Part shown: piece by piece, positions 1-21,200 of the stretch
Layout: every line of letters begins with the position of its first letter
Position numbering within the stretch: the stretch's first letter is position 1
Assembly: GCA_965224465.1 (NCBI GenBank)
Contig: OZ245049.1
Span: 750,001-782,000 of the forward strand
Origin: Flavobacteriaceae bacterium
GTDB taxonomy: Bacteria; Bacteroidota; Bacteroidia; Flavobacteriales; Flavobacteriaceae
Reading direction: 5' to 3'
Length of the DNA: 32,000 bases
Program-made: the position numbers and the translations under genes
Notes under the pieces: generated by a model
Seen by the model: only the letters and a program-made list of their open reading frames with translations
Told to the model about the DNA's origin: nothing
Database searches by the model: none

Positions 1-1681
1 AGTACTGGTGGTTTTGCTTTGGAATCTCCGCTATCGGTTATTATATAGTCCTCTCCTCCAGACAATTCTACAATAGGTGCACCGCCTTTTCCTACTAATA
101 ATATATCTCCGTTGCTTGGGTCTACTAGGATTTCTGCTATTTGGAAGTTGACTTCGCTGGTATTTACTTGTCCATCACCTCCATTAAATAGATCCCCTGT
201 ACCCTTTACACTACTCCATGTAGGATCGTAGGTAGTTTTAACGACTCCTTCATACAATTCGTAATCCGTATTTATTTTAATTCCTTTAAACTCTACCGCT
301 ATTTTGGTATCTGCTAAATAAGGAACTACAATATATCCCGTTCCAGAAAAAGTACCATTTCCTCCTTGTTTCTGTTTTACTGTCACAGGGAAATCTCCTG
401 CCGTAAATGTTTCGTTCACGCCAATATTTGCCAATGGCTTAGTGTTGGTAATTTCAATTTCGGGGATAATACCACAGCTATAACTCACCGTTTCGTCCTT
501 GGTAGGCATGGTAAACTGGTTTACATTGCTGTAAGTAAACGCTTGGTTTAAATCCGTTATCTCATGGCAAGTACCACCCACTCTAAAATCGTAGGTAACT
601 CCTGCTTGTAAATTTGATACTTGGGCTTGGTTGTTATAAGAAAATATTTCGAACCATTCGGCATCGGCTACATCGGCACGTTTGTATTGTAAATGATACC
701 TGTTGTGATCTGGATGTGTTTTCCAACTTATTTTCACACGCCCTGTATTTAGCGGTTCTGCCAAAGTCATGGTGGGTGGATAACACTGATTTGTATAGGT
801 AAAATAAAATATTTCGCTATACCCATTGTTCTTAAAAACCGAGTTTTCGCTCAATCCTGTTGTAGATTTTGCGCGTACTCGCCAAGCATAGGTACGCCCT
901 GGCATTAATGGAGGCTTGCTTATGTTGTACGATATGGTAGTGGAATAGGTAGTCTCCGAATGATAAGGAGGCGCTGCTAAAAATCCTGCTTGAGGATCTA
1001 TCTGCGTATCCCAAAGCTCACGCAGTTCAAACTCATAACTTACACCACTCGCATTGGCATGCCGTGGTGTCCATTGAAAAGTAATGTTGGTGGGTTGTAT
1101 ATTAGTCAATTGATCCCCTCGGTTGGGAATATTTAAAAAAGGAGGATCGTTTAACAGTAAAAAGATATTAGAACAGCCTCCCATTTTAGGATTGGAGATG
1201 CGTTGTCCTGATAAAAAATCGTAGACTTCCCAACATATTTTGTAGCGTCCATCAGGTAGTGGTCTGTTGTATTGTTGTGGACTAATGCCTATTAAATTAT
1301 GTAACTGAAAATAGGCTGCTAAATCTATGTTTGTAAATTGTTGTGTACTTTTCCCATTGAGGTAAATAAAAGGTGCTCCTTGTACAAAATTTACAGATTG
1401 TATATTGAGTCCCTGTCCTTGTATTTTTAATTTTAAGCGTATTTGACGGTTGCTAATATTGGCATCGTTCATGGTCAAATACAGCCGTAATTTTACAGCA
1501 GACGTTGTTGCATAACTGTTTAGTTTTGTGTTATAAGGGGGGACTATATTTTGACTTACTTGTACTGGGTGGAGTTGGGCCTGTGTAAGTTGGCAGGTTA
1601 GCAATAGGCAGAATGCAGTTAGCAGTTTTGCGGTGACAGTAGGCAGTTTTGCAGTTGGCAGTAGGCAGTTGAGCATCTTTG
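1..1681. repeat. Copy 1 of a 1.68-kb direct repeat (partner 16311..17970)
   Basis: Line-by-line comparison at offset 16310. nt 91-1631 differ from the partner at 6 positions (166, 354, 455, 510, 791, 889). nt 1-90 differ at 9 positions. A 21-nt insertion (1632-1652) is present only in this copy. Similarity becomes degenerate beyond ~1681. Confidence 0.97.
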
Positions 1682-7200: not shown

Positions 7201-9272
7201 AATGTATCCGTAGCTGTAACAAGTACATTATTGGTATAGGTACCTATTGTAATATTGTTGGCATCTACAATATTAACAGCATATTCTCCTGCGTCAATAT
7301 TTGATAGCACCCTCCTATTTTCTCCAACAATTACTTGATACACCCCAAGGTTATTTTTCTTTTTCCAAGTATATTTATAGGCGTATTGACCATTGATAAG
7401 AGGACTAAAAGGTACGCCTCCAGTAGCCGTTACTGTCAATTCTCCATCACTTGAAGGATTCACAAACATATTGGCATTATTACAGGATATGGCATTGGTT
7501 TCTGTCAATGATAAGGCTAACATTGGGGGTTGATTTAAAGTAAACTCCGCTTTTACAATAGTACAACCTTCTTTATTCACAGCTTGGTCGTAATTAATAT
7601 CTTTTACGGTTAAATAATACGTTCCTGCGATTGCATTATTTAATGTTAAAAACCAACCGTCATTTCCATCATGTGTTGCTGTATTTACCGATGTCCAAAC
7701 GGTACCATTTTCATGTTTCCACTCAAAAGAGGCGTATGTTTTGTCTAAATTGAAGGTACCTCCAGTAATTTGCGCCAAAATTTTTCCGTCTGAAAAACCA
7801 AATGCTGATGGCTCTTTAATTGTTGTAAAGGCTATACTTAAAGGATTTTTGGGAATATCAATTAAAAAAGTTTTTGTAATTTCTTTGCCTAGATCAATAA
7901 TTACTCCATTTCCATCTTTTACTATTTCTTTAGCAATACAGCCATACGCATCACGCAATTTAAGTTCATAATTGGCAGTATCTAAGCCCCTAATAGTTTC
8001 AGTAACTCCAACGATTGGAGAAATAGCTGTACTTGAAAATGGGATCCAATTTTCTGTAGTTTCCCCTACTTTTCTTAATAAATACTCATACAGTACAAAA
8101 TTTTGCCCACCACTGGCGGTAATTTTCAACTCCCCATCGCTACCACCATTACACCAAACATCAACTTTTGTAAAATTAAATACTACAGGAGAAGGCTTGT
8201 TAATAGTAAATATTATTTTATGTGTAGGATCCTCAGTAAACGTATTCCAAATTTTTCCTTCATAAGCAGGAATACCAAAACCTAATACCCTAGCTTCATA
8301 TTCTCCTGGGGGTAAATCACTAATTTTATAATTTTTATTTATGATGTCGTTTTCGATGTTTGCTTTGGAATAATCACTATTATTAGTAGTATTAGTGACA
8401 CTAATACTCAATTTTTCTCCCGCATATAAATCACGATCAAAATTAAATGTAACACTTCCATCAATTGCATCATAACAAGTAGTCATATTTGGAAGAGCGC
8501 TATTAAAATGAGGAGCGGACCTTGTTAACTTAAAGAAAATATAATCTTCAGAAACAAGATTATCACACATTCTCAATCTAATGTACAATCGTTTTCCAAC
8601 ATCATTATTTGTTAAAAAAGAGGAAGGCTTGATGGAAAATGACCTTTGCTTATTGGTAACTGATGGCATAGCCGACCAATCAATTTTATTGGGAGTACCA
8701 GAAGACACCAACTGATATTCCCAATTATAATTAGCATTCAAAAACCCTTTAGAGTTATCACTAACTGAAACATAAAATTCGTCTTCTAAGCCGATGAAGT
8801 CAGATGAAGGTTTTATTAAATTGATGATTGGATGAATTTCGTAATCATAACTTATCCATATCTTAGTTTGATCTGAACCTTGAACTTTACTGTAACTTCC
8901 AGATTTACAATTATTATTAATATCGAAATTCTCTATTATTGTTTCCCTGTTTTTGCACTTCTTTTGTTTTCCTCTTGCAGACACGTAAAAGTACAATTTA
9001 ACTGGGCGCTCTAGAAGTTCTATGCTTAGAAGTTCATCTGTTTTCAAATCATATTCAGCACCTTGGCTACCTGCGTTATAAATCTCTGTAAAATCACCGT
9101 CAGCATAATACAATCTAAAATACAAATTATTGTCTCCTGAATCACAGCCAATATTTCGCTTACCTAGTCTTACTTGATAATCATAATTTTTTATGACAAC
9201 CCTGTATGTTTGCGAATACAAATTTGACACAAATAAAACAATCCCTAAAAACAATAATACTTTCCCTTTCAT
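4203..9272 (-). CDS. Giant cell-surface adhesin-like protein with SprB-type repeats, one PKD-like domain and a T9SS type-A C-terminal sorting domain
   Basis: 1689-aa ORF with signal peptide MKGKVLLFLGIVLFVSNLYSQ. It contains repeated modules such as VDVWCNGGSDGELKITASGG, VDVFCNAGNDGSINATITGGTGDYTILWTNG and HPTCFQGNDGSIELALSGGVPPYTIAWNTG, and a PKD-like segment ATYSWTSDNGFSATTPSITISKAGTYQVTV. Confidence 0.9.
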   Translation of the reverse strand: MKGKVLLFLGIVLFVSNLYSQTYRVVIKNYDYQVRLGKRNIGCDSGDNNLYFRLYYADGDFTEIYNAGSQGAEYDLKTDELLSIELLERPVKLYFYVSARGKQKKCKNRETIIENFDINNNCKSGSYSKVQGSDQTKIWISYDYEIHPIINLIKPSSDFIGLEDEFYVSVSDNSKGFLNANYNWEYQLVSSGTPNKIDWSAMPSVTNKQRSFSIKPSSFLTNNDVGKRLYIRLRMCDNLVSEDYIFFKLTRSAPHFNSALPNMTTCYDAIDGSVTFNFDRDLYAGEKLSISVTNTTNNSDYSKANIENDIINKNYKISDLPPGEYEARVLGFGIPAYEGKIWNTFTEDPTHKIIFTINKPSPVVFNFTKVDVWCNGGSDGELKITASGGQNFVLYEYLLRKVGETTENWIPFSSTAISPIVGVTETIRGLDTANYELKLRDAYGCIAKEIVKDGNGVIIDLGKEITKTFLIDIPKNPLSIAFTTIKEPSAFGFSDGKILAQITGGTFNLDKTYASFEWKHENGTVWTSVNTATHDGNDGWFLTLNNAIAGTYYLTVKDINYDQAVNKEGCTIVKAEFTLNQPPMLALSLTETNAISCNNANMFVNPSSDGELTVTATGGVPFSPLINGQYAYKYTWKKKNNLGVYQVIVGENRRVLSNIDAGEYAVNIVDANNITIGTYTNNVLVTATDTLYTLTQPELLQITFTKVDVFCNAGNDGSINATITGGTGDYTILWTNGASTEDIDTLVAGTYTIDVTDIKGCQAQANITIKEPENPLVINYTAFFAPTYTGATNGWIEATITGGTSMDSGKYKYHWKDTNGANLNAKVTETVHATSYVITLNNLGKGVYDLTIEDKNYSVAINKTNCTIVSSDYEIFEPAPLMARIELQQPISCNSANTYEDPFADGVLEVIAEGGVHLQPTDNNGLAYYYTWKKEINPGVWTVLTTQTTNIANNLDAGNYAVNIEDANGIIIGVYQNNLLVNATDVLYLFKEPSLLELSIEKQDVYCFNGSDAWAKIIVSGGKPPYTVLWSNGGVTEQISNLNQGVYEVAVSDSSGCHTTGSIQINQPTASISIKYTAFETPSIGGASDGWIVAQITGGTDFKNGSYTYYWQDANGGILNAQTTTGIVNGIFQIRLNKLPKGAYYLTIEDANSSLANTGDGCTIADNVFMLYDPIEAILSVHKPISCHGDNSFNNPFSDGALHVTVTGGVPFTEGQPYMYYWKKENKNGDFEDLNQNTNTAMGLSHGKYALNVADSRGVVIGVYKSLQLINPTDLIYYFQEPELLEVALSKTEISCDTGDNATATVTITGGIPPYKIEWSNGQDTATANNLIAGNYLVFITDARGCQVTGNIGIAQPGGLQITVLKEKHPTCFQGNDGSIELALSGGVPPYTIAWNTGETVTDIKGLSQGTYTFSLIDGNGCKAFKEIILVHPTKITIDLGADRTLCKDQTHEVDGSISDKNATYSWTSDNGFSATTPSITISKAGTYQVTVISALGCTASDSITFLYNDTIIDSEFLLSSQAYVNQDVIVFNVSSPKGASSKWIIPKEVAIIEKSDLSITLRFPKVATYELGLISTQGACYEEQYKNIVVEEHSGLPSPGDTNNPFIEEFTLSPNPNNGQFELYINLAESSQIAVRVFSIQGSFIFAQPNLASAEEYKISMSLNLATGTYFVVLETAKETRIKRMIIK
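4206..4445 (-). other. T9SS type-A C-terminal sorting domain (Por secretion tail) of the 1689-aa protein
   Basis: The last ~80 aa read FTLSPNPNNGQFELYINLAESSQIAVRVFSIQGSFIFAQPNLASAEEYKISMSLNLATGTYFVVLETAKETRIKRMIIK. This fits the PNP...l.i....v.i.i.d..G......l......i....l..G.Y.v.....k..r.K.iik pattern of TIGR04183-type CTDs. Confidence 0.8.
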
Positions 9273-9276: not shown

Positions 9277-11397
9277 TTAAAATTTAACAGTTACTTTTTT
9301 AACTAGTGAATATTTTCCATTTGTTAAGGTAGCTCTGATATGATATGTATATGTAGTATTTGGGAAAACAGCGGTATCAACAAGTCTTTTTATATGTACG
9401 GGCACAATGCGCCAAGTAGTAGGATCCTTATCATTTTCTTGCTTATAAATGGTGTATTCAGCAATTAAATCGTCAGCGGATCTCCAAAAAAGTTCTATAG
9501 TATTTTCGGTTCTGTACACAATAAAATTTATTTCTTTGATAATTACTGGAGGCCTTAAATCAATAACATTGATGGTAAGCATGGTAGACGGCAATGATAT
9601 TAAACCACTATTATCTATGGCTTTTATAGCATACTGATAGGTCTTGTCTGCTTCCACATCTTTGTCTGTAAAATTTTGTATGGTATCTGTTACTTTGTAA
9701 ATCGTTTCCCAACTGCTACTGTCTGTTATGTTTTTTCTAGAAAGTATATGAGTCGCACCTTCCTCAGAAGAATTAATCCAATTTAGTTTCACCACTCCTT
9801 TTTCGACTTTATAATTCGAAAAAACGGGTGCTGTTGGAGGAATTACATCTGGTTTTTCCAATATCAATACTTCTGATTTATTGGAATGATTGTATCGTTT
9901 ATCCACTGCAACTACTTGGTAATAGACCTTTGCATTTAAGTTTTTCACCTCCACTGTATCTATAAATTGATTGGTTGGAATAGGAGAAACTGTTAACTGG
10001 GAAGTCTCTTCTTTCTTATTAAAGCCTCTAAAAATTCGGTAACCAAGCAAATCCTTTTCTTTATTGGCTTTCCAATAAAACGTAGCAATCCCCAAGCTAT
10101 CTATTTTCCCCTCTAAAGTAATCGGAGTGGCTGGTGGAATTGAATCAACAGGCTGTATAAGTTTACTATACGAAGTTTTTTGTTGCTTTGGTGTAATTCC
10201 TACTGCCGTAATGGTGAAATAATTAGAAGGCTCTAATTCCGAATATATAAGTTGTCTTTGAGATACCAAAATATTATCCATAACTACTTTATAAGGACCT
10301 TCATCTTTTTCCGATTGATTCAATTGAAATTTCTTCGTAACAAGTTCTCCTTCGACAGGAAACTCCCACATAATTTCAACTTCGTTTTCTTTTTTAGTGA
10401 ATTTAAAATCTGAAATACGTGGAGTAAAAGGTAACGTTGGCATTCCTTGCCCTTTTATGGTATCGGAATAGCTTCCTTTTTCTCCAAAAGGAGAAATCCC
10501 GTTTACACGGTAATAATATGTTTTTTGATTTTGTGCCAAGGAATCTATATAATACATTCGCTTTGCAGGTGCGTTTGGTTTATCATTCAAATTAACCAAT
10601 GGTTGATCACTTACTGGGACAAAAGTATTTCCATCTTCGGAGCGTTCCAAGTTATATGAAGTATACACATTTTTAAACAAGGCGTATTCCCACGTAATTA
10701 TGGCACTTTTATCTCCAAATACCCCTTGTAAATCTATAGGTACTGGTAGCGGTTCATAATTATCTAGCCCTGCTAAAACAGCCGAACTTTTTATATCTAA
10801 TTCCTCTTTTGACAATGCCGATTTAATTTTATAAGCATAGGTTTCATTTGATTTCACATCGGTATCTGTATATCCCCATCCTGCTTTTGATGCTGCTTCA
10901 AAATTCATATCTGCCGCTAACAATGCAAAAGAAAAACGTTGTTCATTTTCTTGCACGATATTAACAATAGTTGCCAATGCTCCTTGAGAACCTTCTACAT
11001 TAAAACGTTCCCCGTAAATTGCCTGTGCAATGATGGCTGCATAATCATTATTTTCTACAATTTCTTGCCATGTTTCTAAGGGAGCTGCTTTTATAGATTT
11101 TGACCATAGCTTTTGTGCCACCGGTAAACGTTTTCCGTTTTTAGAAAACAAGTATTTTTCCAATATAAAACCACTGGTATTTGTTTTTCCCCAAGCCAGT
11201 GCTTCATCCACTGCCCAACGCAGTAATATATTTTTTTCTTGAACACGTGATAGAAGTCTGACAGATGGGAGGCTGTCTTGTTGTTTTACTTGGGAAAACC
11301 CAAAAGTAAATACAAACATACAAACCAATCTTATCATAAAAATTATTGATTTTTCATGAATTTGATGCATACCATTTATAGATGTTTTATTCGTCAT
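9277..11397 (-). CDS. Secreted multi-fibronectin-type-III-domain protein
   Basis: 706-aa ORF. A hydrophobic signal-like segment (MIRLVCMFVFTFGFSQ) begins at an internal Met at 11337. There are repeated ~90-aa units ending in FN3-like Y.Y.V.A.D..GN.S motifs (YYYRVNGISPFGEKGSYS, VYYQVVAVDKRYNHSNKS, YQYAIKAIDNSGLISLPS, YTYHIRATLTNGKYS). Confidence 0.85.
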   Translation of the reverse strand: MTNKTSINGMHQIHEKSIIFMIRLVCMFVFTFGFSQVKQQDSLPSVRLLSRVQEKNILLRWAVDEALAWGKTNTSGFILEKYLFSKNGKRLPVAQKLWSKSIKAAPLETWQEIVENNDYAAIIAQAIYGERFNVEGSQGALATIVNIVQENEQRFSFALLAADMNFEAASKAGWGYTDTDVKSNETYAYKIKSALSKEELDIKSSAVLAGLDNYEPLPVPIDLQGVFGDKSAIITWEYALFKNVYTSYNLERSEDGNTFVPVSDQPLVNLNDKPNAPAKRMYYIDSLAQNQKTYYYRVNGISPFGEKGSYSDTIKGQGMPTLPFTPRISDFKFTKKENEVEIMWEFPVEGELVTKKFQLNQSEKDEGPYKVVMDNILVSQRQLIYSELEPSNYFTITAVGITPKQQKTSYSKLIQPVDSIPPATPITLEGKIDSLGIATFYWKANKEKDLLGYRIFRGFNKKEETSQLTVSPIPTNQFIDTVEVKNLNAKVYYQVVAVDKRYNHSNKSEVLILEKPDVIPPTAPVFSNYKVEKGVVKLNWINSSEEGATHILSRKNITDSSSWETIYKVTDTIQNFTDKDVEADKTYQYAIKAIDNSGLISLPSTMLTINVIDLRPPVIIKEINFIVYRTENTIELFWRSADDLIAEYTIYKQENDKDPTTWRIVPVHIKRLVDTAVFPNTTYTYHIRATLTNGKYSLVKKVTVKF

Positions 11398-11408
11398 TTA
11401 TTCTTTTT

Positions 11409-11636
11409 TTAACAATTTAATTTATCCGATAATTCTACAATAGGTGCACCGCCTTTTCCTACTAATAATATATCTCCGTTGCTTGGGTCTACTAGGATTT
11501 CTGCTATTTGGAAGTTTACCTGTTTCACTGCATACGTTCCTTGCTGTTTTTGAACAGCGTGCTGCTGTGCTACTGCTATTTGAAAAAAGCAGGAACATAG
11601 GAATAGTAGGATTGTATGTAGGTTTTTAAGTGGCAA
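11409..11636 (-). CDS. 75-aa orphan ORF: signal-peptide-like N-terminus fused to a 30-aa segment copied from the toxin paralogs. Possibly a gene remnant.
   Basis: Translation ...KNLHTILLFLCSCFFQIAVAQQ...VNFQIAEILVDPSNGDILLVGKGGAPIVELS-DKLNC*. The underlying nt 11428-11516 match 61-149 (88/89) and 16371-16459 (86/89). There is no ATG: the ORF opens with TTG (11636..11634) immediately after an in-frame stop. Confidence 0.4.
   Translation of the reverse strand: MPLKNLHTILLFLCSCFFQIAVAQQHAVQKQQGTYAVKQVNFQIAEILVDPSNGDILLVGKGGAPIVELSDKLNC
11428..11516. repeat. Third copy of the 89-nt junction segment of the toxin paralogs
   Basis: gataattctacaataggtgcaccgccttttcctactaataatatatctccgttgcttgggtctactaggatttctgctatttggaagtt. 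It carries the copy-2 base at the position equivalent to 63 and the copy-1 bases at 75, 81 and 84, so it is a mosaic. Confidence 0.95.
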
Positions 11637-11682
11637 TATTTATTTGTTTATCATTTTTTTTATTGTTCTATTTGCATCGCCG

Positions 11683-12357
11683 CTAAGTCGGGAGACTTTG
11701 CGCAGCGGGTAAATCTTCTTTAAATAACTCCTCAAATACTTTTAAAATATCTTTATAAGTATCTTTTTTTTTAGCTTGGATTTTTAAAATATTATAATAT
11801 TCAATCAGCTTTTCATTAAAATCCGGATGCTTAACGAGTTTTAATATTAAAATTGTTTTTGGAAATAATATGGAGCCTTGAATATATGGCACTACTTCCT
11901 GAGGTTTTTTATCAGCCAACAAATCTGCCACCTTCTCTAAAGTGTTATATTTCTCAAAAAAAGGTAATGAGTATTGCTGAATGATTTTTTGGATTTGCTC
12001 ATTAACCAATTGAAACGATTTAAGGTCATTTATTTCCGTACTAAAAGCAGAGTAATCAACATTTTCTAACTGGTTCAAAACATTTCTTATGGTTCTTACT
12101 TCTTCGCTTGGTTTCCTAACTCTTGTCTTTTCGTATGCATCATTTAATGTTTTTTCTACATTATGGAATGATATTCCTATTGAAATTCCATCTATGAATA
12201 CTCCGTGAGGAAAATATTTTCTATCTTGTATATATATTAATTTATCATATTTCATCCCTTTTGATATTAGTGAAATACCATTGTCTACCCTAGTAAATCC
12301 CAGAGGCATTTCAAGGATATTCTCCCAATCTGTAACATAGTTTTTCTTTAAATACAT
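11683..12357 (-). CDS. Candidate cognate immunity protein (assigned by position only); cytoplasmic, family not recognised
   Basis: 224-aa ORF whose ATG (12357) lies 4 nt after the toxin stop (12362-12364). It has no signal peptide or hydrophobic segment (MYLKKNYVTDWENILEMPLGF...). I recognised no motif. Confidence 0.8.
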   Translation of the reverse strand: MYLKKNYVTDWENILEMPLGFTRVDNGISLISKGMKYDKLIYIQDRKYFPHGVFIDGISIGISFHNVEKTLNDAYEKTRVRKPSEEVRTIRNVLNQLENVDYSAFSTEINDLKSFQLVNEQIQKIIQQYSLPFFEKYNTLEKVADLLADKKPQEVVPYIQGSILFPKTILILKLVKHPDFNEKLIEYYNILKIQAKKKDTYKDILKVFEELFKEDLPAAQSLPT

Positions 12358-12361
12358 AATG

Positions 12362-15300
12362 TTATATTTTTTTTATTCCTGTAATAATATCCCCGTTTGC
12401 TCCATCGTGCACTTTATACCATTGTATCTCTCCATTAAAACTTAAAATTTCTCCTCCTTTTAATTCATTTTTACTACCATCTATTTTAGATTTTTTCGGA
12501 TTAGAGGCACGAACACTATAACTACCTTTTCCCTTTGCAGCCTTTTGGTTAGGTGTTAAACGAGTGCCACTGCTAAGTTTGTTTTCTATAATTATGATAT
12601 CATCTATATCTCCATAAGCATCATATTTTACAAAAACTTGGTCTGCTACAAAATAATCTACTTTTTTGCCATTAGCCAATGTTACCTCTCCAAAACTTAA
12701 TTGTACTTGTGAGAACATATCGTATTCATCTAGATTTTTGTTAAAGTCTGCACTAAATTTTTGTTTTAATTCCAAGTACTTATCAGAGAGGCGGTTTTTA
12801 AATTTTTCTAGGCAGACAAATTTTTCAAAATCATTTCCCTTTTTTGTTACCACTTTAAAGAAATTGGCTTTAGCCCATTTTCTCCATATTCCTGTACCAT
12901 CTTCACCTAATTCAAAAGCATAGGCAGCATCGTCTTTAAGTAGTTTCCAGGCTTCCACATCTTCTGCCCCAACTATGAGATCTTTAAGCTCATCTCCATT
13001 ACTTTTAGAAGCAAAATCCATGTTTAATTTACTCCAATAGGATTCTCCAATTTCATCAATTTTTTTTATTATGTCAATATTCTCAACTTCATCTAAATTA
13101 GATACCCATGTTTTCAAATTTGGAAAATCATCCATTTTATTCAACAATGCAGTAATAGCCTCACTGTGTTTCACCGTTGTCCCAAGTATTCTCTTAGCCT
13201 CAGCAATATCCCCTACTAAATCATCAACGTTACCTAGTCCAGCTTCAATCTCAAGATGTGTAACCCAAATTTTTGCTTCTTTTATTTTATTAGGGTTCGC
13301 TGTGTTAATCGTTTTAATGTCTCCTTCTGCATCTTTTAATTTGTCTAAGAATAATTTAGCCTGATTTTTACTTGGCAGCGTTTTATTTAGAGTTTTAGTT
13401 TTAGAAAAAATCTTTTTTAAATTAGCTACATTAGATATTTCACCAATGGCAATAGTGGCAGTTAAAACGTTTAGGGCGTCTAAAAAAGCTTTGCCTTGTG
13501 GGCTTAAATTTTCTGTACCTATGGCTGTGGTAGTCAAACTAACTCCTGAGCCAAGCATATCCGCAATAATAAAAGTTTTTCGCATTAAACTTGGAGCCTT
13601 TGTAAGAGCTCCATAACCAGAAGCTAAACTTGCAACATCTACAGTTGCTTGTACCCCATCTACAACTACTTGCGTATTTCCAACATCGCTAGCATAAAAA
13701 GCAACTATGGCAGGGCTAATTACAGGTACATCATCGTTATATTCACTTAACATGCTTAACCCTGATTTATTGGTGAAATAAATTGGAGAATAAGGATGTA
13801 ATGCCAATGGTATAGCTGTAGAGACAATATCATTGCCAACAAATTTATCGGTATAAAGTGAAATTGTGGAAATTGTCTCATCTTCCTCCGATAGCCATTT
13901 TACTCTTGTGTCATACGAGTATAGATTTTTGCCATTCAGAAAATTCCATAACACAGGTAAATCTCCCAAAGTCAAGTTCCAAAAAGACTTGTAATAAAAT
14001 TTGATGTTTCTCTCAATTAACTCATCTTCCTTTAAACTTCCTAGTTCCGTTAAAAAGAATGTTGACTTATTAACATTTAAATCTGCGAGTACATTAATTA
14101 AATTCTTATAATTATCTTCATGAAAATAAGTGTGGTCATTATCTGTTTTATATACTAATTTACGAAGTAGGTTATAGTCTGCAGTTGCTACTTTAGAAAC
14201 ACTGTTTATTCCATCTAATAACCCGTCAACTTCAGTTTTTTTCGTGAATTTTATTAACCTAATTAACTGTTTTTCTTTTTCATTGTCCAGAGTCCACTTG
14301 TCTAGCATTAAGCTAAGTATTATCAATTTTTTATCAATTGATATATCTTCAATCTCATTGTTAGACAAAAATGCAATACATTTATGTAAATCAGATATTT
14401 TACTTTCTCCATCTATTGAACTCAATAAATGTGCACAATCTTTGGTTTCATTTTTTACACCATTTACAAATTGAACATACTTTTGAATTAATGAATCCTT
14501 TTTTAATGTTTTTAATGCCTCGTAAGCTATCTCAGATGGGACACTACTTAAATAGTTAGGAATAACCTTATCCATGGCATCAGGATATGCATTGTTAAGT
14601 ACTGCAATTTTTGAAGCTATAAGATACAGGGAATTCCAATCAATAATTTCCCCTAATATTTCCTTAATTAATTTCCCTTCCAAATTATATAGTTCAGGAA
14701 ACGGAATATTCTTCGCAAAAGTATAGTCATTTTTTTCTAGAACCTCTCCTGTATAGAACTTACTAAACCTATTATAATTTGATAAAATATTTGTCTCCTT
14801 TTGAGAACCCCAAGTTAAATTATCAACTTTATTAAGAGAAAGTCTTCTTGATTTATCTGTTAAAATAAGTATGATTACTTTACCGAAACTTCGTTTATTA
14901 TCTTCAGAAAGCACAAACTCCTCACCTGTGTCAGATTCAAAACCAAAATAATCAAAAGTAAAATCAGTAATAGTTATATCTGTACTTAATTCATTATTTA
15001 CTCTTTTCGCTTTATACTTATTACTATCCAATGTAAAACCTATAAGTGCACCTGTAGGGTATTTTATAAATTCATTTATTTTATCTAAACTAGTAACAAA
15101 CCTGATATTTTCTATTTTTGAAGGAAGTGTGATATAACTTCCGTTCAAAGTCATAAAAGTATATGTTCCGTTCGAATTTTTAAATTTACTAGGAATTCCA
15201 GAAATAGTGGTGCTCTCCCCTTCACTATCCCCATCAAAAACCCCAATCCTCAATTTCGGATTGTGTATGGCTTTCCAATGTACATAAGGTAAATGCTCTC

Positions 15301-18241
15301 CATTATTATAATCTAGTAACCAATTGGTACTTCCTGTAGCATATTTATAACTATGCGTAGAGAATGGATGTTTTAGTTGGAAGGCACCGTGGGCGAGTTC
15401 GTGTGCTACGGTTATCCCCCCAGCCCCAGAAGGGGGAGAATTTGCGGTAAAAATATAACCGAATTGTCTGCCTAGTGGCATGAGTCCTTTTTCTCCTGCG
15501 GAGCTTGGCTGTTTGTCTGTTAAGATTAAATAATAAGCTTCAGGGTTAAAGTTACCATGCTCTTTTAATGCCTTATTTATACTACGCTGTTGCTCCGTGT
15601 ATTGCGCTGCAAAGCCACTTTCTCCACTTTTTATAGTGCCGTCTGGTGTTAAACTGTTTAGGGTCGCTGTAAAATCGTTAATTACAGAAATATTTAGGCT
15701 AACTGCTGCTTGTTGGTAAATAGCTTTTAGTTTTTTTGTAATGGCACTTGTATTCGCATTTGAAGTATTTACCAATACTACGGCCACTTCCTTTATGGCA
15801 ATTTGGTATTGCATAAAAGCCCCTGCTATTTGGTATTTATCGCCTTGTTTTACTAAGGCTTGGGTTTCTATATCGGCATCGCTTAGCGTTCCTTTTAATT
15901 TTAAGGTGTAAGAAGTACTAGTACTATCTACTTTTTTCAGTCCTACACCATCTTTGGTTTTAAAAATAATGTCTTGAGGTTTTATACTATCGTTGGTAAT
16001 TTTGAAATTGGCAACAATAAAAGCTACCTTGCCCTTGGCTACCGCTTTGTAAGGCATGTAATAAGCTGCTCCTAACTTTTTGTACAAGTCCTTGGTTTGT
16101 GATTGGCTTGAGTTGTAGGCGTCGAATCCAGTGGGCAGTGTTGCAGTAGGCAGTTGGGTGAACGTTACGGTGACACCTTGTGCGGTGATGTTGGTGGCTT
16201 CTCCTTTGCTGTTTACGCCTGTGGTATTTTCCACAGTGGTAGTACCGCCTTCGGCTTGTGGACCTAATTCGGTTACATTTCCTTGTTCGTCTACATGGTA
16301 TTTTTTTGGTAGTACTGGCGGTTTTGCTTTGGGGTCTCCGCTATCGGTTATTATATAGTCTTCGCCTCCAGATAATTCTACAATGGGTGCTCCTCCTTTT
16401 CCTACTAATAATATATCTCCGTTGCTTGGGTCTACTAGGATTTCTGCTATTTGGAAGTTGACTTCACTGGTATTTACTTGTCCATCACCTCCATTAAATA
16501 GATCCCCTGTACCCTTTACACTACTCCATGTAGGATCGTAGGTAGTTTTAACGACTCCTTCATACAATTCGTAATCCGTATTTATTTTAATTCCTTTAAA
16601 CTCTACCGCTATTTTGGTATCTGCTAAATAAGGAACTACAATATATCCCGTTCCAGAAAAAGTTCCATTTCCTCCTTGTTTCTGTTTTACTGTCACAGGG
16701 AAATCTCCTGCCGTAAATGTTTCGTTCACGCCAATATTTGCCAATGGCTTAGTGTTGGTAATTTTAATTTCGGGGATAATACCACAGCTATAACTCACCG
16801 TTTCGTCCTTGGTAGGCATTGTAAACTGGTTTACATTGCTGTAAGTAAACGCTTGGTTTAAATCCGTTATCTCATGGCAAGTACCACCCACTCTAAAATC
16901 GTAGGTAACTCCTGCTTGTAAATTTGATACTTGGGCTTGGTTGTTATAAGAAAATATTTCGAACCATTCGGCATCGGCTACATCGGCACGTTTGTATTGT
17001 AAATGATACCTGTTGTGATCTGGATGTGTTTTCCAACTTATTTTCACACGCCCTGTATTTAGCGGTTCTGCCAAAGTCATGGTGGGTGGATAACACTGAT
17101 CTGTATAGGTAAAATAAAATATTTCGCTATACCCATTGTTCTTAAAAACCGAGTTTTCGCTCAATCCTGTTGTAGATTTTGCGCGTACCCGCCAAGCATA
17201 GGTACGCCCTGGCATTAATGGAGGCTTGCTTATGTTGTACGATATGGTAGTGGAATAGGTAGTCTCCGAATGATAAGGAGGCGCTGCTAAAAATCCTGCT
17301 TGAGGATCTATCTGCGTATCCCAAAGCTCACGCAGTTCAAACTCATAACTTACACCACTCGCATTGGCATGCCGTGGTGTCCATTGAAAAGTAATGTTGG
17401 TGGGTTGTATATTAGTCAATTGATCCCCTCGGTTGGGAATATTTAAAAAAGGAGGATCGTTTAACAGTAAAAAGATATTAGAACAGCCTCCCATTTTAGG
17501 ATTGGAGATGCGTTGTCCTGATAAAAAATCGTAGACTTCCCAACATATTTTGTAGCGTCCATCAGGTAGTGGTCTGTTGTATTGTTGTGGACTAATGCCT
17601 ATTAAATTATGTAACTGAAAATAGGCTGCTAAATCTATGTTTGTAAATTGTTGTGTACTTTTCCCATTGAGGTAAATAAAAGGTGCTCCTTGTACAAAAT
17701 TTACAGATTGTATATTGAGTCCCTGTCCTTGTATTTTTAATTTTAAGCGTATTTGACGGTTGCTAATATTGGCATCGTTCATGGTCAAATACAGCCGTAA
17801 TTTTACAGCAGACGTTGTTGCATAACTGTTTAGTTTTGTGTTATAAGGGGGGACTATATTTTGACTTACTTGTACTGGGTGGAGTTGGGCCTGTGTAAGT
17901 TGGCAGGTTAGCAATAGGCAGAATGCAGTTAGCAGTTTTGCAGTTGGCAGTAAGCAGTTGAGCATCTTTGTGAAAATAGTAGGCAATTGCTTGTTGTTGC
18001 GGATATTTGTAGTATGCGGTATGCAGTTGAGCATCTTTGTGGTAAGATTTTTTAAATTAAACTTTGATTTTATTTCACAACAGTGAGTACTGCAAACTGC
18101 ATCCAGAAAACTGCGTACTTTATAGACATCAGTGCTAAAACCGCATACTGCATACTTTAACCTCAACAACATTCCTGCAATCTGCTTACTGCTTACCATG
18201 CGTAACATTTTATTTATTAAATTTGAGAACATTCTTTTCAT
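12362..18241 (-). CDS. Giant modular polymorphic-toxin-like protein: FN3-rich N-terminal region, HExxH metallopeptidase motif, long helical region, hydrophobic pre-toxin helices, PD-(D/E)xK-like C-terminal domain
   Basis: 1959-aa ORF. FN3-like segments include TNITFQWTPRHANASGVSYEFELRELW...RTYAWRVRAKS and GRVKISWKTHPDHNRYHLQYKRADVADAEWFEI...GVTYDFRVGG. The peptidase motif is ITVAHELAHGAFQLKHPF. The C-terminus reads GNDFEKFV...VDYFVAD...IIIIENKLSSGTRLTPNQ. There is no T9SS CTD. The start is ambiguous. The ATG at 18241 overlaps the upstream stop (TAATG), but the first signal-peptide-like segment begins at Met93 (17965: MLNCLLPTAKLLTAFCLLLTCQLTQAQ). Confidence 0.9.
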   Translation of the reverse strand: MKRMFSNLINKMLRMVSSKQIAGMLLRLKYAVCGFSTDVYKVRSFLDAVCSTHCCEIKSKFNLKNLTTKMLNCIPHTTNIRNNKQLPTIFTKMLNCLLPTAKLLTAFCLLLTCQLTQAQLHPVQVSQNIVPPYNTKLNSYATTSAVKLRLYLTMNDANISNRQIRLKLKIQGQGLNIQSVNFVQGAPFIYLNGKSTQQFTNIDLAAYFQLHNLIGISPQQYNRPLPDGRYKICWEVYDFLSGQRISNPKMGGCSNIFLLLNDPPFLNIPNRGDQLTNIQPTNITFQWTPRHANASGVSYEFELRELWDTQIDPQAGFLAAPPYHSETTYSTTISYNISKPPLMPGRTYAWRVRAKSTTGLSENSVFKNNGYSEIFYFTYTDQCYPPTMTLAEPLNTGRVKISWKTHPDHNRYHLQYKRADVADAEWFEIFSYNNQAQVSNLQAGVTYDFRVGGTCHEITDLNQAFTYSNVNQFTMPTKDETVSYSCGIIPEIKITNTKPLANIGVNETFTAGDFPVTVKQKQGGNGTFSGTGYIVVPYLADTKIAVEFKGIKINTDYELYEGVVKTTYDPTWSSVKGTGDLFNGGDGQVNTSEVNFQIAEILVDPSNGDILLVGKGGAPIVELSGGEDYIITDSGDPKAKPPVLPKKYHVDEQGNVTELGPQAEGGTTTVENTTGVNSKGEATNITAQGVTVTFTQLPTATLPTGFDAYNSSQSQTKDLYKKLGAAYYMPYKAVAKGKVAFIVANFKITNDSIKPQDIIFKTKDGVGLKKVDSTSTSYTLKLKGTLSDADIETQALVKQGDKYQIAGAFMQYQIAIKEVAVVLVNTSNANTSAITKKLKAIYQQAAVSLNISVINDFTATLNSLTPDGTIKSGESGFAAQYTEQQRSINKALKEHGNFNPEAYYLILTDKQPSSAGEKGLMPLGRQFGYIFTANSPPSGAGGITVAHELAHGAFQLKHPFSTHSYKYATGSTNWLLDYNNGEHLPYVHWKAIHNPKLRIGVFDGDSEGESTTISGIPSKFKNSNGTYTFMTLNGSYITLPSKIENIRFVTSLDKINEFIKYPTGALIGFTLDSNKYKAKRVNNELSTDITITDFTFDYFGFESDTGEEFVLSEDNKRSFGKVIILILTDKSRRLSLNKVDNLTWGSQKETNILSNYNRFSKFYTGEVLEKNDYTFAKNIPFPELYNLEGKLIKEILGEIIDWNSLYLIASKIAVLNNAYPDAMDKVIPNYLSSVPSEIAYEALKTLKKDSLIQKYVQFVNGVKNETKDCAHLLSSIDGESKISDLHKCIAFLSNNEIEDISIDKKLIILSLMLDKWTLDNEKEKQLIRLIKFTKKTEVDGLLDGINSVSKVATADYNLLRKLVYKTDNDHTYFHEDNYKNLINVLADLNVNKSTFFLTELGSLKEDELIERNIKFYYKSFWNLTLGDLPVLWNFLNGKNLYSYDTRVKWLSEEDETISTISLYTDKFVGNDIVSTAIPLALHPYSPIYFTNKSGLSMLSEYNDDVPVISPAIVAFYASDVGNTQVVVDGVQATVDVASLASGYGALTKAPSLMRKTFIIADMLGSGVSLTTTAIGTENLSPQGKAFLDALNVLTATIAIGEISNVANLKKIFSKTKTLNKTLPSKNQAKLFLDKLKDAEGDIKTINTANPNKIKEAKIWVTHLEIEAGLGNVDDLVGDIAEAKRILGTTVKHSEAITALLNKMDDFPNLKTWVSNLDEVENIDIIKKIDEIGESYWSKLNMDFASKSNGDELKDLIVGAEDVEAWKLLKDDAAYAFELGEDGTGIWRKWAKANFFKVVTKKGNDFEKFVCLEKFKNRLSDKYLELKQKFSADFNKNLDEYDMFSQVQLSFGEVTLANGKKVDYFVADQVFVKYDAYGDIDDIIIIENKLSSGTRLTPNQKAAKGKGSYSVRASNPKKSKIDGSKNELKGGEILSFNGEIQWYKVHDGANGDIITGIKKI
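12365..12830 (-). other. C-terminal ~155-aa putative restriction-endonuclease-fold (PD-(D/E)xK) toxin domain
   Basis: The catalytic-type residues occur in the expected order: E in GNDFEKFV, D in VDYFVAD, E-x-K in IIIIENK (codons at 12578-12586), then TPNQ. This matches the generic E...D...ExK...Q layout of PD-(D/E)xK nucleases. I could not assign a subfamily. Confidence 0.5.
15389..15403 (-). other. HExxH zinc-metallopeptidase motif (HELAH) inside the toxin
   Basis: The reverse complement of gtgggcgagttcgtg is cac gaa ctc gcc cac. The context is GITVAHELAHGAFQLKHPF, with a third His 7 residues after the second. Confidence 0.7.
16311..17970. repeat. Copy 2 of the 1.68-kb direct repeat (partner 1..1681)
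   Basis: See the partner feature. It encodes aa ~93-643 of the 1959-aa protein. Confidence 0.97.
17925..18200. repeat. Short GCAGTWG/CTGCTTAC-type repeat field with an 11-bp perfect inverted repeat, at the 5' end of toxin paralog 2
   Basis: gcagtaagcag (17947-17957) is the exact reverse complement of ctgcttactgc (18182-18192). The unit gcagttgagcatctttg occurs twice, 69 nt apart, giving Met70 and Met93 (KMLNCIP.../KMLNCLL...). The region shares modules with 1820-1897, 2391-2453 and 2748-2810. Confidence 0.9.
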
Positions 18242-21200
18242 TAGTTTCTAAACCTATTAGGGTTCTTAAATTTATAGGTACTATTACTTCCTTCAATCCC
18301 TCCAGGTAACGTGTAGCTTAATTTTGTTTCATAAAAACCATATCTCATAAAGAGGTAATCATCATCCAAGAAATTAAGTAGTGAACTTCCTTTAGGTATC
18401 AATCCGTCCACATAATCATTCAATATTTGAGATTGCATATCTAGCCAATCCGCTTTATAAGCCTCCCCAAGGTTGTAGCGAAAAGGAAAGGTAGTTCTCA
18501 GTGTTTTATCATTTACTTCGTATTCCAAATTAGTTAAATAACTAGATAAAATAGGCATTGCATACTTAGGAGGTGTGCCTAATAATTGAACCTTTCTGTT
18601 TTCAAAAGTATACGTTCCTCCCATTGGATATTGGGCATATAATGGTGGATTTATATCAGCTGTAAAATAGCTATCCTCAAGCGTTGCTTCAATACTAACT
18701 AAAGGTATATGATCTGTAAAATTAGATCCTAAAAGTTCCATAATATCAAAAGGTTCATGATCATCCAGTCTATTGGTCAAATAAATAACATCAGAATAAA
18801 TAATTCCCCAATTATAATCGTTGGTATTGATGGAGTTAATTTTACGTTTGAATGTTTTGTATTTAGACGAACCAAATTCATACGCCAACCGTACTATCTC
18901 TCCATTTTTAGATACATTTTCTGCCTGTTTATTTTCTATGATTGCAGTATTCTCACCAGAATCATCACCTATATCGGCATTATGAGTTGTTGTATCCCCT
19001 CCTCGTTCTACGGCAGCTCCTTTAAGTCTACTAGCAATTTCCATGGTATAGTGTGTTTCTTGGGATATGTTCGGTATTTTATAGCTTAGTTTATTATCCG
19101 AAGTACTGTAATTAAAATCTATATCTTTTGAATTTCTATTGTTAGAACTATACTTCACAAAGCTCTCCCAGGCGGCATCATCAAATAAATAATCTTGCCC
19201 ACGTTTTAATTGAATGTACCCTTGAGCATACTCATTTTCTAAAAAATATTTCTGGTCTACTACTGGATATGCGTATTTGATATTGTGTAAGGGAATATAA
19301 TTGGGAGCTCCACCGGTAGTAAAGGTACGCTCTTCCATTTCTTTTGCTGGTTTACCATCTACCATTATGGGTTGAAAAATTCCATTAATTTTCTCTTTAA
19401 AACTCACCTCTACACGCACTGTTAATTCTTTATTTGGAGGTAAGATGTCTGAAGACACAAAATTAGCTCGGTCTTTAAAGGTTGACCATTCTATGACACC
19501 AGGGATTTCCTTCCCCTTGTATAAAACAGTAAATGTATCCACATCAATGCGGTATGTTTTATCACCATCATCTTCTGGGATAATTAATGGCACGCCCACT
19601 TTCATACTAAAAGTTACTTGCGGAACGGCAAAAATGTCTAAGTCTTTTATACCATTATCAGGTGACACATCTGTAATAATTTTTAAGCCACCCAAAGGTA
19701 TCCCATTATCAAATTCACATTCTTCTCCAATCGTAAGTTTAAATCTAAACTTACCTTTTACCAATCCTCCCAACACATTAAAATTACCCCCCACATAGCC
19801 ACGCATCCAAACTGGATTTGGCGCTTTGGCTTGCAATAATACAGCAGCTCCACCTTTAATGATTGGTATTTTCTTCTTCACAAAAAACAATTTGATTTGA
19901 ATCCCTAATTCTCCTTGTAAATAGGCGTATGCTTGTCCATTTGCATACCAGCCATTAATCCCTACTTGCTTCCCAGTATTGGAACAAGAAGCTTCTCCAT
20001 AATCTCGTAACATGATATCAAAACCAGTACCTGCCTGAAAACGAGCATATAACATCAAAAAACGTAAATCTCCTGTATCAATAGCCAGATCAGCTCCAAA
20101 AGCGAACCCTCCCCCGGACTTTAAGGCATTTTCGTCGCGCATATAATCCAATACATCTGCATCTACTCCTAGAATTTCTGCAACAATTGGAGGCGGAGGC
20201 GGAGATCCTGGAAGCTTGGAACCTACCATTAAGTAGCCCCCTGTTTCCAAAAAAACAGTCCCAACACCTATTTTTATTCCCAACCTATCTTCTGGAGTTC
20301 CTATATAAATATACCATTCTTCTTTTGCAAAATGTAATACTGCCCATCCAGCTCTTCCACCAGGGCCTCTACCCTGAATAAACCCTCCTGGAGTATTAAT
20401 AGTAACATCCAATTCTCCGTGCAATACATCATTTTGAAAATCATAGGTTATTCCCATTTTCGCACAAATATCCATTCCTTTGCTAGGGTCTACTTGTGGA
20501 AAATTATTAGCTGCCTTGTCCATTAAATTTCCCCCAGCCCAAGATTCATCATCTTTTGGCGTACTTAGAAATTTTTCGGCTATATCAACATTTTCTTTTA
20601 CTTTATTTAGAAGGTCTGAAATTTTTTCTATCCCAGGAATTTTAACTCCTAAAAAGGTTGCTTGACCATAAAACCCCATGTTGTTAATTCCGCCATGGCG
20701 ATTAAACAAAATTTCAAAACCAGCACTTCCTTTAATAACTTCGTCCTTCACCATATTAAACATCACCATTGCTTTAAAGCCAAGTCCGAGGTCATGATCA
20801 GGGGTATAACCAATTCCTGTAGGTGAAAATGACGAAGAAAAACCTTTCCGTTTCATCCGATATGATGCGCCACCAGCAAATCCAGTCAAATTCATATAAC
20901 CGGTCCCAATAGAAAAACCATCCACCATAGCTTCAAATTGCCAATACCTAAAATCTGTTTTTCCAAACACTCCTTTAGCCGCAGCTTTTATACCAATACT
21001 TTTAAAATTGGCAGTTAATGATGCTGCAAACCCATCTCCATATTCTGGGTCATCTCGCATTAATTTTAACCATCCTTCTATAGAAAACCCTCCTAAATCC
21101 GCCTTTATAGTAATTTCATCCAATCGCAGTCCATCAAACTTCCATTTTTGACGATAATCTTCTTCTTCAAAACTCCCTATGACTCCTAAGCTGGTTGCAG

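What the first reader, a model, noticed from the sequence alone, without database searches (positions are those of the whole stretch)
11409..11636. A third, mosaic copy of the 89-nt junction segment sits in a tiny signal-peptide-bearing ORF right after the immunity gene
nt 11428-11516 reproduce the segment (61-149 / 16371-16459, encoding NFQIAEILVDPSNGDILLVGKGGAPIVELS) that lies exactly where the two toxin paralogs switch from ~99.6% to ~90% identity. The copy is a mosaic: it has the copy-2 base at position 63 and copy-1 bases at 75, 81 and 84. It is embedded in a 75-aa ORF with a plausible signal peptide but only a TTG start, and the ORF stops 5 codons after the segment. A conserved segment recurring downstream of an immunity gene resembles the recombination handles that precede orphan toxin cassettes in CDI and Rhs loci. 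Here, though, no toxin tail follows it. It could be a recombination scar, a handle for cassette exchange, or a small secreted peptide mimicking a toxin surface.
Basis: partly seen in the sequence, partly recalled or inferred. Interest (0 to 1): 0.7.

Follow-up and report, generated by a model that had tools for sequence, protein, structure and literature searches.

The report
Truncated stub of a spare toxin gene
The tiny ORF is the leftover front end (signal peptide plus first 30 codons) of a short "spare" toxin gene of the kind that sits behind TANFOR-type polymorphic toxin genes in Flavobacteria. It is an ordinary by-product of toxin-cassette shuffling, not a new kind of gene.

Summary
An 89-nt segment (92 nt with one mismatch) occurs three times, at 61-149, 11428-11516 and 16371-16459, and a 65-nt core is identical in all three. 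The third copy lies in a 75-aa, TTG-started ORF that ends five codons after the segment.

The two large genes are TANFOR-class polymorphic toxins of Bacteroidota, set in the usual FN3/SprB/PKD neighbourhood. The segment encodes the first three beta-strands of the toxin's central, HExxH-containing module.

The same 5.24-Mb genome encodes two full "short-form" toxins, P0123 (611 aa) and P0139 (1392 aa). Both start with the same leader as the 75-aa ORF and the same 30 residues, then continue through the central module into different toxin tails.

Equivalent short forms lie downstream of main toxin and immunity genes in two Tenacibaculum genomes. In one of them, main-versus-short-form DNA identity jumps from about 40% to 98-100% within a few codons of this motif's start.

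The 75-aa ORF is therefore a decapitated short-form (orphan-like) toxin gene that kept only its leader and recombination handle. I found no support for a conserved small peptide or an RNA element. However, the main conserved/variable boundary of the family lies about 415 codons further downstream.

The parts
11409..11636 (-). 75-aa ORF (P0122): the truncated 5' stub of a short-form, TANFOR-less toxin gene
   Evidence: ORF list and translation. It clusters at 90% identity with P0123 from the same genome. P0139 has the same N-terminus.
11517..11636 (-). Leader: TTG start (11634-11636), then a Sec-type signal-peptide-like sequence MPLKNLHTILLFLCSCFFQIAVAQQ and a short linker ending KQV
   Evidence: 34/40 residues are identical to the leader of P0123/P0139. 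It aligns with the leaders of short forms in other genera, M(x)K(K/N)L(H/L)xI..., with a TTG start at the equivalent codon in both Tenacibaculum loci. There is no DNA similarity to the main toxin genes.
11428..11516 (-). Handle copy 3: the first 30 codons of the toxin central module (NFQIAEILVDPSNGDILLVGKGGAPIVELS)
   Evidence: 1 mismatch to copy 1 and 3 to copy 2; 65 nt are identical in all three.
11409..11427 (-). Non-homologous end of the stub (DKLNC plus stop). This is the breakpoint where the central module and toxin tail are missing. It lies 11 nt upstream of the ATG of the 706-aa FN3 gene.
   Evidence: Alignment with copies 1 and 2 loses all similarity after GAATTATC.
16371..16459 (-). 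Handle copy 2, residues 595-624 of toxin paralog 2
61..149 (-). Handle copy 1, inside toxin paralog 1, which runs off the left end of the window
12362..17965 (-). Toxin paralog 2. The probable true start is the ATG at 17963-17965; the ORF is open up to 18241. Its parts are: signal peptide; TANFOR-like plus FN3 N-module (to about 16,470); central module with HELAHG (16,459 to about 15,212); and a variable C-terminal region with an E-x-K toxin-like end.
   Evidence: Pfam fn3. Weak TIGR02542 hit. Homologs carry EndoU, AHH, deaminase or ART ends. Module map. Start codon.
1..1676 (-). 5' part of toxin paralog 1 (probable start ATG 1674-1676). Its N-module is 99.6% identical in DNA to paralog 2 down to the handle.
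11683..12357 (-). 224-aa probable immunity gene of paralog 2
   Evidence: It starts 4 nt after the toxin stop. It is 35% identical (E 3e-29) to the gene immediately downstream of P0005, a toxin sharing the same C-terminal domain. It has no family assignment.

Best explanation
The 75-aa ORF is a dead-end remnant of a 'short-form' toxin gene.

Toxins of this family are modular. They consist of a signal peptide, a TANFOR/FN3 delivery module, a central roughly 415-residue module with an HExxH zinc-peptidase-like motif, and a variable toxin tail followed by an immunity gene.

Downstream of such main genes, genomes keep spare modules that lack the delivery module. These spare modules begin with their own short signal-peptide leader, joined within a few codons of the first residues of the central module.

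Because main and spare genes share the central module, homologous recombination or gene conversion inside it can swap tails and immunity genes. The 89-nt segment is the 5' edge of that shared block. In this genome its 65-nt perfectly identical core is the longest uninterrupted match visible between copies, and so a likely crossover site.

In the window, a spare module sat after the immunity gene of paralog 2. It then lost everything 3' of the handle, most simply by a deletion that brought the handle next to the FN3-SprB-PKD operon. Leader plus handle plus five junk codons are what remains.

The stub probably makes no useful protein. It is still a live homology patch.

Shown: the repeat; the module map; full-length siblings in the same genome; the same architecture and the identity step in other genera.

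Inferred: the deletion; recombination as the homogenising force; signal-peptide function; lack of function of the peptide.
For: 1. P0122 (this ORF) and P0123 (611 aa, same 5,241,564-bp contig) fall in one 90% cluster. P0123 and P0139 (1392 aa, same contig) start MPHKNLHTILLFLCSCFFQIAVAQQ...KQV + NFQIAEILVDPS...VELS. They continue GGEDYIITD... through HELAHG into unrelated tails. P0123 is 96% identical to paralog 2 over residues 593-1014.

2. In T. lutimaris (L009), a main toxin (5232-8486) and three small genes are followed by a leader + motif + central + tail gene (9863-14686). In Tenacibaculum sp. UWU-22, the short form P0131 lies about 8.5 kb downstream of the main toxin, among immunity-type genes.

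3. In UWU-22, main-versus-short-form DNA identity is about 40% upstream. It jumps to 98-100% four codons into the motif, stays high for about 800 nt, is 85-90% to the end of the central module, and then returns to about 40%.

4. An exhaustive HMMER search found 110 representatives. The motif sits at residues 480-570 in long forms. It sits at about residues 23-59 in some nine proteins that start with a Sec-type signal peptide (P0139, P0143, P0131, P0152, P0153, P0158, P0179, P0168/P0221, and less clearly P0194).

5. The toxin end of paralog 2 is homologous (E 2e-22) to the end of the short form P0158, so the same tail family occurs on both forms.

6. The paralog identity step lies inside the handle.

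7. In the AF2 model (pLDDT 80), the 30 residues form strands 1-3 in a run of seven beta-strands spanning about the first 105 residues.

8. A more distant Bacteroidales locus also has a main gene, one intervening gene and an orphan sharing 82% identity over 1,039 nt.
Against: - The rest of the genome could not be read. The positions of P0123 and P0139, the tail of paralog 1 and any trace of the lost tail are therefore unknown.
- The stub's reading frame is still open over 75 codons, and gene callers predict it. Expression is not excluded.
- The handle is near-identical to the main copies, whereas the leader differs at 6 of 40 residues from its siblings. This could mean ongoing conversion, but also selection.
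- No event of recombination was observed directly.
Confidence: 0.8

Rival explanations
1. The stub is kept by selection as a handle-only landing pad. It would be a short homology patch with a ready-made start and signal peptide. Incoming or resident central-module + tail + immunity DNA could recombine into it, creating a new short-form toxin without touching the main gene.
For: The handle is 98.9% identical to paralog 1 and contains the 65-nt block shared by all copies. The leader is intact, with the conserved TTG start. A crossover between this handle and the handle of paralog 1 (a direct repeat about 11.4 kb away) would generate exactly a P0123-type gene (inference).
Against: One-sided homology of 89 nt cannot capture a cassette by itself. 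The same crossover would delete the FN3-SprB-PKD operon. No second handle-only copy was seen in 18 related loci. Nothing distinguishes this reading from passive survival of a recent remnant.
Confidence: 0.1
2. The ORF encodes a functional small exported peptide. After signal-peptide cleavage, the roughly 50-residue product carries the three-strand motif. It could compete with, or regulate docking of, short-form toxins on the TANFOR carrier.
For: The ORF has a plausible Sec signal (n-region with K, hydrophobic core, AVA-QQ site; read). The frame is open and the ORF is called as a gene in public annotation. No minus-strand terminator was found between the immunity gene and the ORF. Jana et al. 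2020 proposed that separately encoded toxins interact with the TANFOR protein.
Against: The word-based search found only P0122 itself. In the exhaustive search, the only other short hits extend past the motif and look like contig-edge or truncated fragments. There are no extra motif copies in related loci. The motif is three strands of a larger beta region and is unlikely to fold alone. The last five codons are unrelated sequence, created at a homology breakpoint.
Confidence: 0.07
3. The repeat is a nucleic-acid element (a structured RNA or protein-binding site) that happens to lie in coding sequence, or it is a chance or low-complexity match.
For: 65 nt are perfectly conserved, including synonymous positions, in three copies.
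Against: Folding gives z = +2.1 for the segment and -0.7 for the whole ORF, so there is no excess structure. Rfam has no hit there. 89 nt at 97-99% identity cannot arise by chance. In other genera the motif is conserved at the protein level, not the DNA level.
Confidence: 0.02

Closest known systems
TANFOR-domain polymorphic toxins of Bacteroidetes (Jana, Salomon & Bosis 2020, PMC7073777)
   Same: - Large Sec-signal proteins with an N-terminal TANFOR/FN3 region, interchangeable C-terminal toxin domains and downstream immunity genes.
- Neighbourhoods rich in SprB-repeat/T9SS-CTD, FN3 and PKD proteins. The window has exactly this set.
- The paper also notes toxins encoded as separate genes just downstream of the TANFOR gene.
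   Different: - The paper does not mention orphan modules, recombination or truncated remnants.
- It does not describe the shared central HExxH module, the signal-peptide leader of the separate genes, or the motif at which they begin.
- The 75-aa ORF itself has no TANFOR domain.
Orphan cdiA-CT/cdiI modules of contact-dependent inhibition loci and orphan Rhs C-terminal fragments (own knowledge, not checked in papers here)
   Same: - Spare toxin-tail and immunity modules lie downstream of the main toxin-immunity pair.
- Each is preceded by a stretch homologous to the main gene, which allows tail replacement by homologous recombination.
- Truncated fragments are common in such arrays.
   Different: - CDI/Rhs orphans usually lack a start codon and export signal and are silent until recombined.
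- Here the spare modules carry a conserved leader with a start codon and a Sec-type signal peptide, so they may be expressed on their own.
- The homology block is a 415-residue module rather than a short region before a VENN or PxxxxDPxGL motif.
- The stub has no tail or immunity gene.
Alternative mafB 3' cassettes in Neisseria MGI islands (own knowledge)
   Same: Arrays of alternative toxin ends with immunity genes lie behind a full-length secreted toxin gene, and they share a conserved 5' segment.
   Different: The phylum, the N-terminal domain and the cassette boundary are all different. No signal-peptide leader on the cassettes is known to me.

Membership tests
TANFOR-containing polymorphic toxins (applies to the two large paralogs) | N-terminal TANFOR domain (TIGR02542) | tested here: inconclusive
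   The hit lies at the right place and covers profile positions 7-135 of 145. However, E = 0.0048 and 16.8 bits fall below the 67-bit cut-off. The homolog P0059, which NCBI names a TANFOR domain-containing protein, scores 34 bits and is 43% identical to paralog 2 over about 900 residues.
TANFOR-containing polymorphic toxins | Conserved N-terminal part with diverse C-terminal toxin domains among homologs, and an immunity gene downstream | tested here: met
   Homologs carry EndoU, AHH, deaminase, NUC, ART or ParB-like ends. Homology breaks at residues 1000-1110 in 87 of 119 homologs. The downstream 224-aa gene co-occurs with the toxin end.
TANFOR-containing polymorphic toxins | Neighbourhood enriched in SprB repeat, T9SS C-terminal sorting domain, FN3 and PKD proteins | tested here: met
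   The window carries SprB + Por_Secre_tail (4203-9272), PKD (2821-4203) and an FN3-like 706-aa gene. The same gene order is found in 16 related loci.
TANFOR-containing polymorphic toxins (applied to the 75-aa ORF itself) | Presence of the TANFOR domain | tested here: not met
   The ORF has no family hit. It consists only of a leader plus the first 30 residues of the central module.
Orphan toxin modules (CDI/Rhs type) | Lies downstream of a main toxin-immunity pair and begins with a segment homologous to the main gene | tested here: met
   The ORF starts 46 nt after the immunity gene's stop. The 89-nt handle is 97-99% identical to the main genes.
Orphan toxin modules (CDI/Rhs type) | Carries a toxin C-terminal domain followed by its immunity gene | tested here: not met
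   Homology ends after the handle, and the next gene is the FN3 gene of the neighbouring operon. The toxin tail is present in the siblings P0123 and P0139 (immunity genes not seen). In L009 and L001 the tail is followed by small genes.
Orphan toxin modules (CDI/Rhs type) | No own translation start or export signal (silent until recombined) | tested here: not met
   A conserved leader with a start codon and a Sec-type signal peptide is present in the stub, its siblings and short forms of other genera. Signal-peptide function was judged by eye only.
Orphan toxin modules (CDI/Rhs type) | Recombines with the main gene to replace its tail | not testable with these tools
   Only indirect evidence is available: identity steps at the handle in this genome and in UWU-22, and the same tail family on long and short forms.
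Conserved small secreted peptide / bacteriocin-like gene | Intact small ORF conserved in related genomes | tested here: not met
   The word-based search finds only P0122 itself. In the exhaustive search the only other short hits (120-225 aa) extend past the motif and look like contig-edge or truncated fragments, not leader-plus-motif ORFs. There is one motif copy per related locus.

The most novel reading that the evidence does not exclude
The stub is not junk but a working part of the system. One possibility is a small exported three-strand peptide that occupies the docking site used by signal-peptide-bearing short-form toxins on the TANFOR carrier, tuning which toxin is loaded. The other is a selected, promoter-and-leader-equipped acceptor site at which new central-module + toxin + immunity DNA is captured.
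Probability: 0.07. Interest if true: 0.6.

Novelty: new member of a known kind. Interest (0 to 1): 0.3.

Why it matters
The stub itself is a routine remnant, but following it exposed how TANFOR toxin loci are organised. They have a second class of delivery-module-less toxin genes with their own conserved signal peptide. These share a 415-residue peptidase-like module with the main toxins and begin at a fixed motif.

This gives three practical results:
- a concrete map of where tails are exchanged in this little-studied toxin class;
- a testable link to the published idea that separately encoded toxins ride on the TANFOR protein;
- a rule for annotators, namely that small ORFs of leader plus motif after immunity genes are gene fragments.

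Tried and rejected
- **Reading the rest of the genome.** Exact-product look-ups of five proteins of this genome found no gene positions. An exact 65-mer scan of species-representative genomes found nothing. The tail of paralog 1 and the loci of P0123 and P0139 therefore stayed out of reach. Paralog 1's product was also not seen among the homologs, for reasons I could not establish.
- **Leader as a DNA copy of the main toxin's 5' end.** No alignment scored above shuffled controls. At protein level there is only a marginal resemblance, AQQNPIQKQQ against AQLHPVQVSQ (E 0.04). It remains a possibility, not a result.
- **Family searches of the stub, the central module and the tails.** These gave nothing beyond fn3 and a weak Reprolysin_3 hit in P0131. 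The profile search against PDB sequences had no hit. The fold search gave only weak Ig-like matches.
- **Homolog search with P0123.** It was swamped by low-complexity word matches and scored only 9 proteins. The search with P0122 returned only itself.
- **RNA-structure and Rfam readings of the segment.** Both were rejected.
- **The 'mosaic' as evidence of recombination within the stub.** Rejected as unnecessary, because it rests on four synonymous sites.
- **An unequal-crossover origin of paralog 2 that would leave the stub.** Considered and dropped, because the predicted flanking gene order does not match the window.

Full report
**The observation**

All genes around the finding are on the minus strand. 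The repeat finder and a three-way alignment show one segment present three times: 61-152, 11428-11519 and 16371-16462.

The third copy matches over 89 nt (11428-11516), or 92 nt with one mismatch. Similarity disappears abruptly on both sides.

It differs from copy 1 only at site 63, and from copy 2 at sites 75, 81 and 84. A 65-nt block is identical in all three. All differences are synonymous.

The ORF 11409-11636 is 75 codons and starts with TTG. It reads LPLKNLHTILLFLCSCFFQIAVAQQHAVQKQQGTYAVKQV, then the 30 shared residues, then DKLNC and a stop.

The two large paralogs differ at 6 of 1,475 positions upstream of the segment and at 10 of the last 156 positions visible. The change falls inside the segment.

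- Only 60 nt of paralog 1 beyond the segment are in the window.
- The 'mosaic' rests on four sites that private substitutions explain just as well.

**The large genes**

Paralog 2 (ORF 12362-18241; probable start ATG 17963-17965) has FN3 hits. It also has a weak, correctly placed hit to the TANFOR domain model (E 0.0048, below the cut-off).

Its homologs are Flavobacteriia proteins of 1,100-3,000 residues. Their C-termini carry EndoU, AHH, deaminase, nuclease, ADP-ribosyltransferase and other toxin domains, and one homolog is named a TANFOR domain protein by NCBI.

This is the class described by Jana, Salomon and Bosis (2020, PMC7073777). That paper also reports enrichment of SprB-repeat/T9SS, FN3 and PKD genes nearby.

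The window has that set, and sixteen related loci show the same order: FN3 gene, SprB gene, PKD gene, sometimes a four-helix-bundle gene, then the toxin. The canonical locus in the window is therefore 9277-11397 / 4203-9272 / 2821-4203 / 2004-2342 / paralog 1. Paralog 2, its 224-aa gene and the stub lie directly upstream of it.

The 224-aa gene is a credible immunity gene. It starts 4 nt after the toxin stop. It is 35% identical (E 3e-29) to the gene that follows P0005, a toxin sharing the same C-terminal domain.

**Module map**

BLAST of 119 homologs against paralog 2 shows two places where homology ends. 87 homologs end at residues 1000-1110, after an HExxH-containing region (HELAHG at residue 947). 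12-14 end at residues 570-700.

The motif occupies residues 595-624. It is therefore not the main conserved/variable boundary of the family. Instead it sits at the junction between the N-terminal TANFOR/FN3 module and a central module of about 415 residues.

GC content follows the main boundary. It is about 0.40 through the N-terminal and central modules, and 0.28-0.33 in the tail and immunity gene.

An AlphaFold model of the central module (mean pLDDT 80) places the 30 residues as the first three of seven beta-strands spanning about the first 105 residues. Fold and sequence searches of solved structures gave nothing specific.

**Identity of the tiny ORF**

The exact sequence, with M for the TTG, is in the public protein collection as P0122. 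It shares a 90% cluster with P0123, a 611-aa protein from the same 5,241,564-bp contig.

P0123 begins MPHKNLHTILLFLCSCFFQIAVAQQNPIQKQQGTYVVKQV, followed by the same 30 residues. It then continues GGEDYIITDSGDSKAKPPV... through HELAHG (96% identical to paralog 2 over residues 593-1014) into a distinct 150-residue end.

The exhaustive HMMER search found a third sibling on the same contig. P0139 (1392 aa) has the identical leader and a different long tail.

The stub is therefore the first 70 codons of this kind of gene, cut off at the end of the handle.

**Evidence from other genomes**

In Tenacibaculum lutimaris, a main toxin (L009 5232-8486) and three small genes are followed by a gene (9863-14686). 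That gene starts ...LLKKNLHIISLLLFLLSQGIVFGQELSTLTIV and then ISDVQIDPNGDILVIG..., which is leader plus motif plus central module plus tail.

In Tenacibaculum sp. UWU-22, the short form P0131 lies about 8.5 kb downstream of the main deaminase toxin, among SUKH, Imm74-like and other small genes.

In UWU-22, DNA identity between the main gene and the short form is about 40% before the motif. It rises to 98-100% starting four codons into the motif, stays there for about 800 nt, falls to 85-90% up to the end of the central module, and then returns to about 40%. This is the signature of exchange between the two genes.

A Bacteroidales MAG has a main gene, one intervening gene and a leaderless orphan that shares 82% identity over 1,039 nt.

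Among the 110 representatives in the exhaustive search, the motif lies at residues 480-570 in long forms. In some nine proteins it lies at about residues 23-59, and their N-termini are typical Sec signals, for example MKNLLYILLLLFSITFGYAQ and MKKLLNILFFFISITFNFAQ.

The n-region (K-N/K-L-H/L-x-I) is shared between our leader and the Tenacibaculum leaders. The TTG start also lies at the equivalent codon in both Tenacibaculum loci.

The toxin end of paralog 2 is homologous to the end of the short form P0158 (E 2e-22). The same tail family therefore occurs on both forms.

**Mechanism**

I conclude that TANFOR toxin loci keep spare modules without a delivery module behind the main gene, as CDI and Rhs loci keep orphans. 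The shared central module is the substrate for tail replacement.

The 89-nt segment is the 5' limit of that substrate. Downstream identity in this genome is only about 92% in the 60 nt visible, with exact runs of 26 nt or less. The 65-nt perfect core is thus the longest uninterrupted match seen and a plausible preferred crossover point. This would explain why the identity step between paralogs 1 and 2 lies inside it. This step is inference.

The stub most simply arose by deletion of everything between the end of the handle and the start of the FN3 operon. No repeat or mobile element marks the breakpoint.

The stub's peptide is unlikely to matter. It would carry only three strands of a larger domain plus five junk residues. 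No other intact ORF of leader plus motif alone was found. The few short hits extend past the motif and come from short contigs or start mid-sequence.

**Rivals**

- A selected 'landing pad' and a functional small peptide cannot be excluded without expression and population data, but nothing favours them.
- An RNA element is rejected: folding gives z = +2.1 for the segment and -0.7 for the ORF, and Rfam has no hit there.
- The leader shows no DNA similarity to the main genes. It has only a marginal protein resemblance to their signal peptide and first mature residues. An origin of short forms by internal deletion of a long form is possible but unproven.

**Comparison and novelty**

The toxins belong, by homology and context, to the published TANFOR class, although the domain model scores below its cut-off.

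The stub works like a truncated CDI/Rhs-type orphan but fails two defining features of such orphans: it has no tail or immunity gene, and it has its own start and signal peptide.

The published TANFOR paper mentions separately encoded downstream toxins. It does not use the terms orphan, recombination or truncated, and it does not mention a metallopeptidase. The locus anatomy found here therefore adds detail to a known kind rather than a new kind.

**Limits**

As a result, the tail of paralog 1, the positions of P0123 and P0139, and their DNA could not be examined.

Signal peptides were judged by eye. Recombination is inferred from identity patterns only.

Noticed in passing
window 2507-2581 (+): Rfam Flavo-1 RNA motif (59.8 bits against a gathering score of 42). 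It lies in the intergenic region between the PKD gene and the four-helix-bundle gene, on the strand opposite to all neighbouring genes. It sits between 60-69-nt direct repeats (2385-2461 and 2741-2817).
   Followed up: no
window 2004-2342 (-); L002 8067-8315; L007 8037-8285: A 112-aa '23S rRNA intervening sequence'/bAvd-like four-helix-bundle protein gene sits between the PKD gene and the toxin gene. It holds the same position in two other genera (about 62% identity), so it looks like a recurrent part of the locus rather than a random insertion.
   Followed up: partly
window 1770-1872, 2385-2489, 2741-2817, 18038-18191: Families of CTGCCTAC/ACTGCCTACTGC-type direct repeats lie upstream of both toxin paralogs. 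In paralog 2 they are read through by a spurious 92-codon N-terminal extension of the ORF. Paralog 1 has a 21-nt insertion (1632-1652) inside its signal-peptide region.
   Followed up: partly
window 18241-23022 (-): A 1593-aa protein lies directly upstream of paralog 2. It has no Pfam or NCBIfam hit and no homolog in the 10-kb upstream flanks of related toxin loci. There, the PKD gene holds that position.
   Followed up: partly
window 23234-23400 and 26594-26762: About 170 nt of direct repeat (81-88% identity) flank the 915-aa outer-membrane-receptor-like gene (23661-26408).
   Followed up: no
window about 15,212-15,260 (-), residues about 995-1010 of paralog 2: The last family-wide conserved motif before the variable tails is HNPKLRIG(I/V)FDxDxEGE (consensus of alignment A2). 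It plays the positional role that VENN plays in CdiA. It is the real conserved/variable demarcation and coincides with the GC drop from about 0.40 to about 0.30.
   Followed up: partly
window 12362-13100 (-): The C-terminal toxin end contains a D...(I/V)IENK element (IIIIENKLSS). It is shared with P0158 (VIVIENKLNK) and reminiscent of the (D/E)xK core of the BaCT DNase domain described for TANFOR toxins. It was not compared with a BaCT sequence.
   Followed up: partly
L001 3696-4259 and 14167-14745: Two Y1_Tnp (REP-associated tyrosine transposase-like) genes are embedded in the immunity/orphan array of Tenacibaculum sp. UWU-22.
   Followed up: no
homolog table: The product of paralog 1 did not appear among the homologs of paralog 2, although it should be 99% identical over more than 500 residues. 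Paralog 1 may be disrupted or uncalled beyond the window, or missing from the collection.
   Followed up: no
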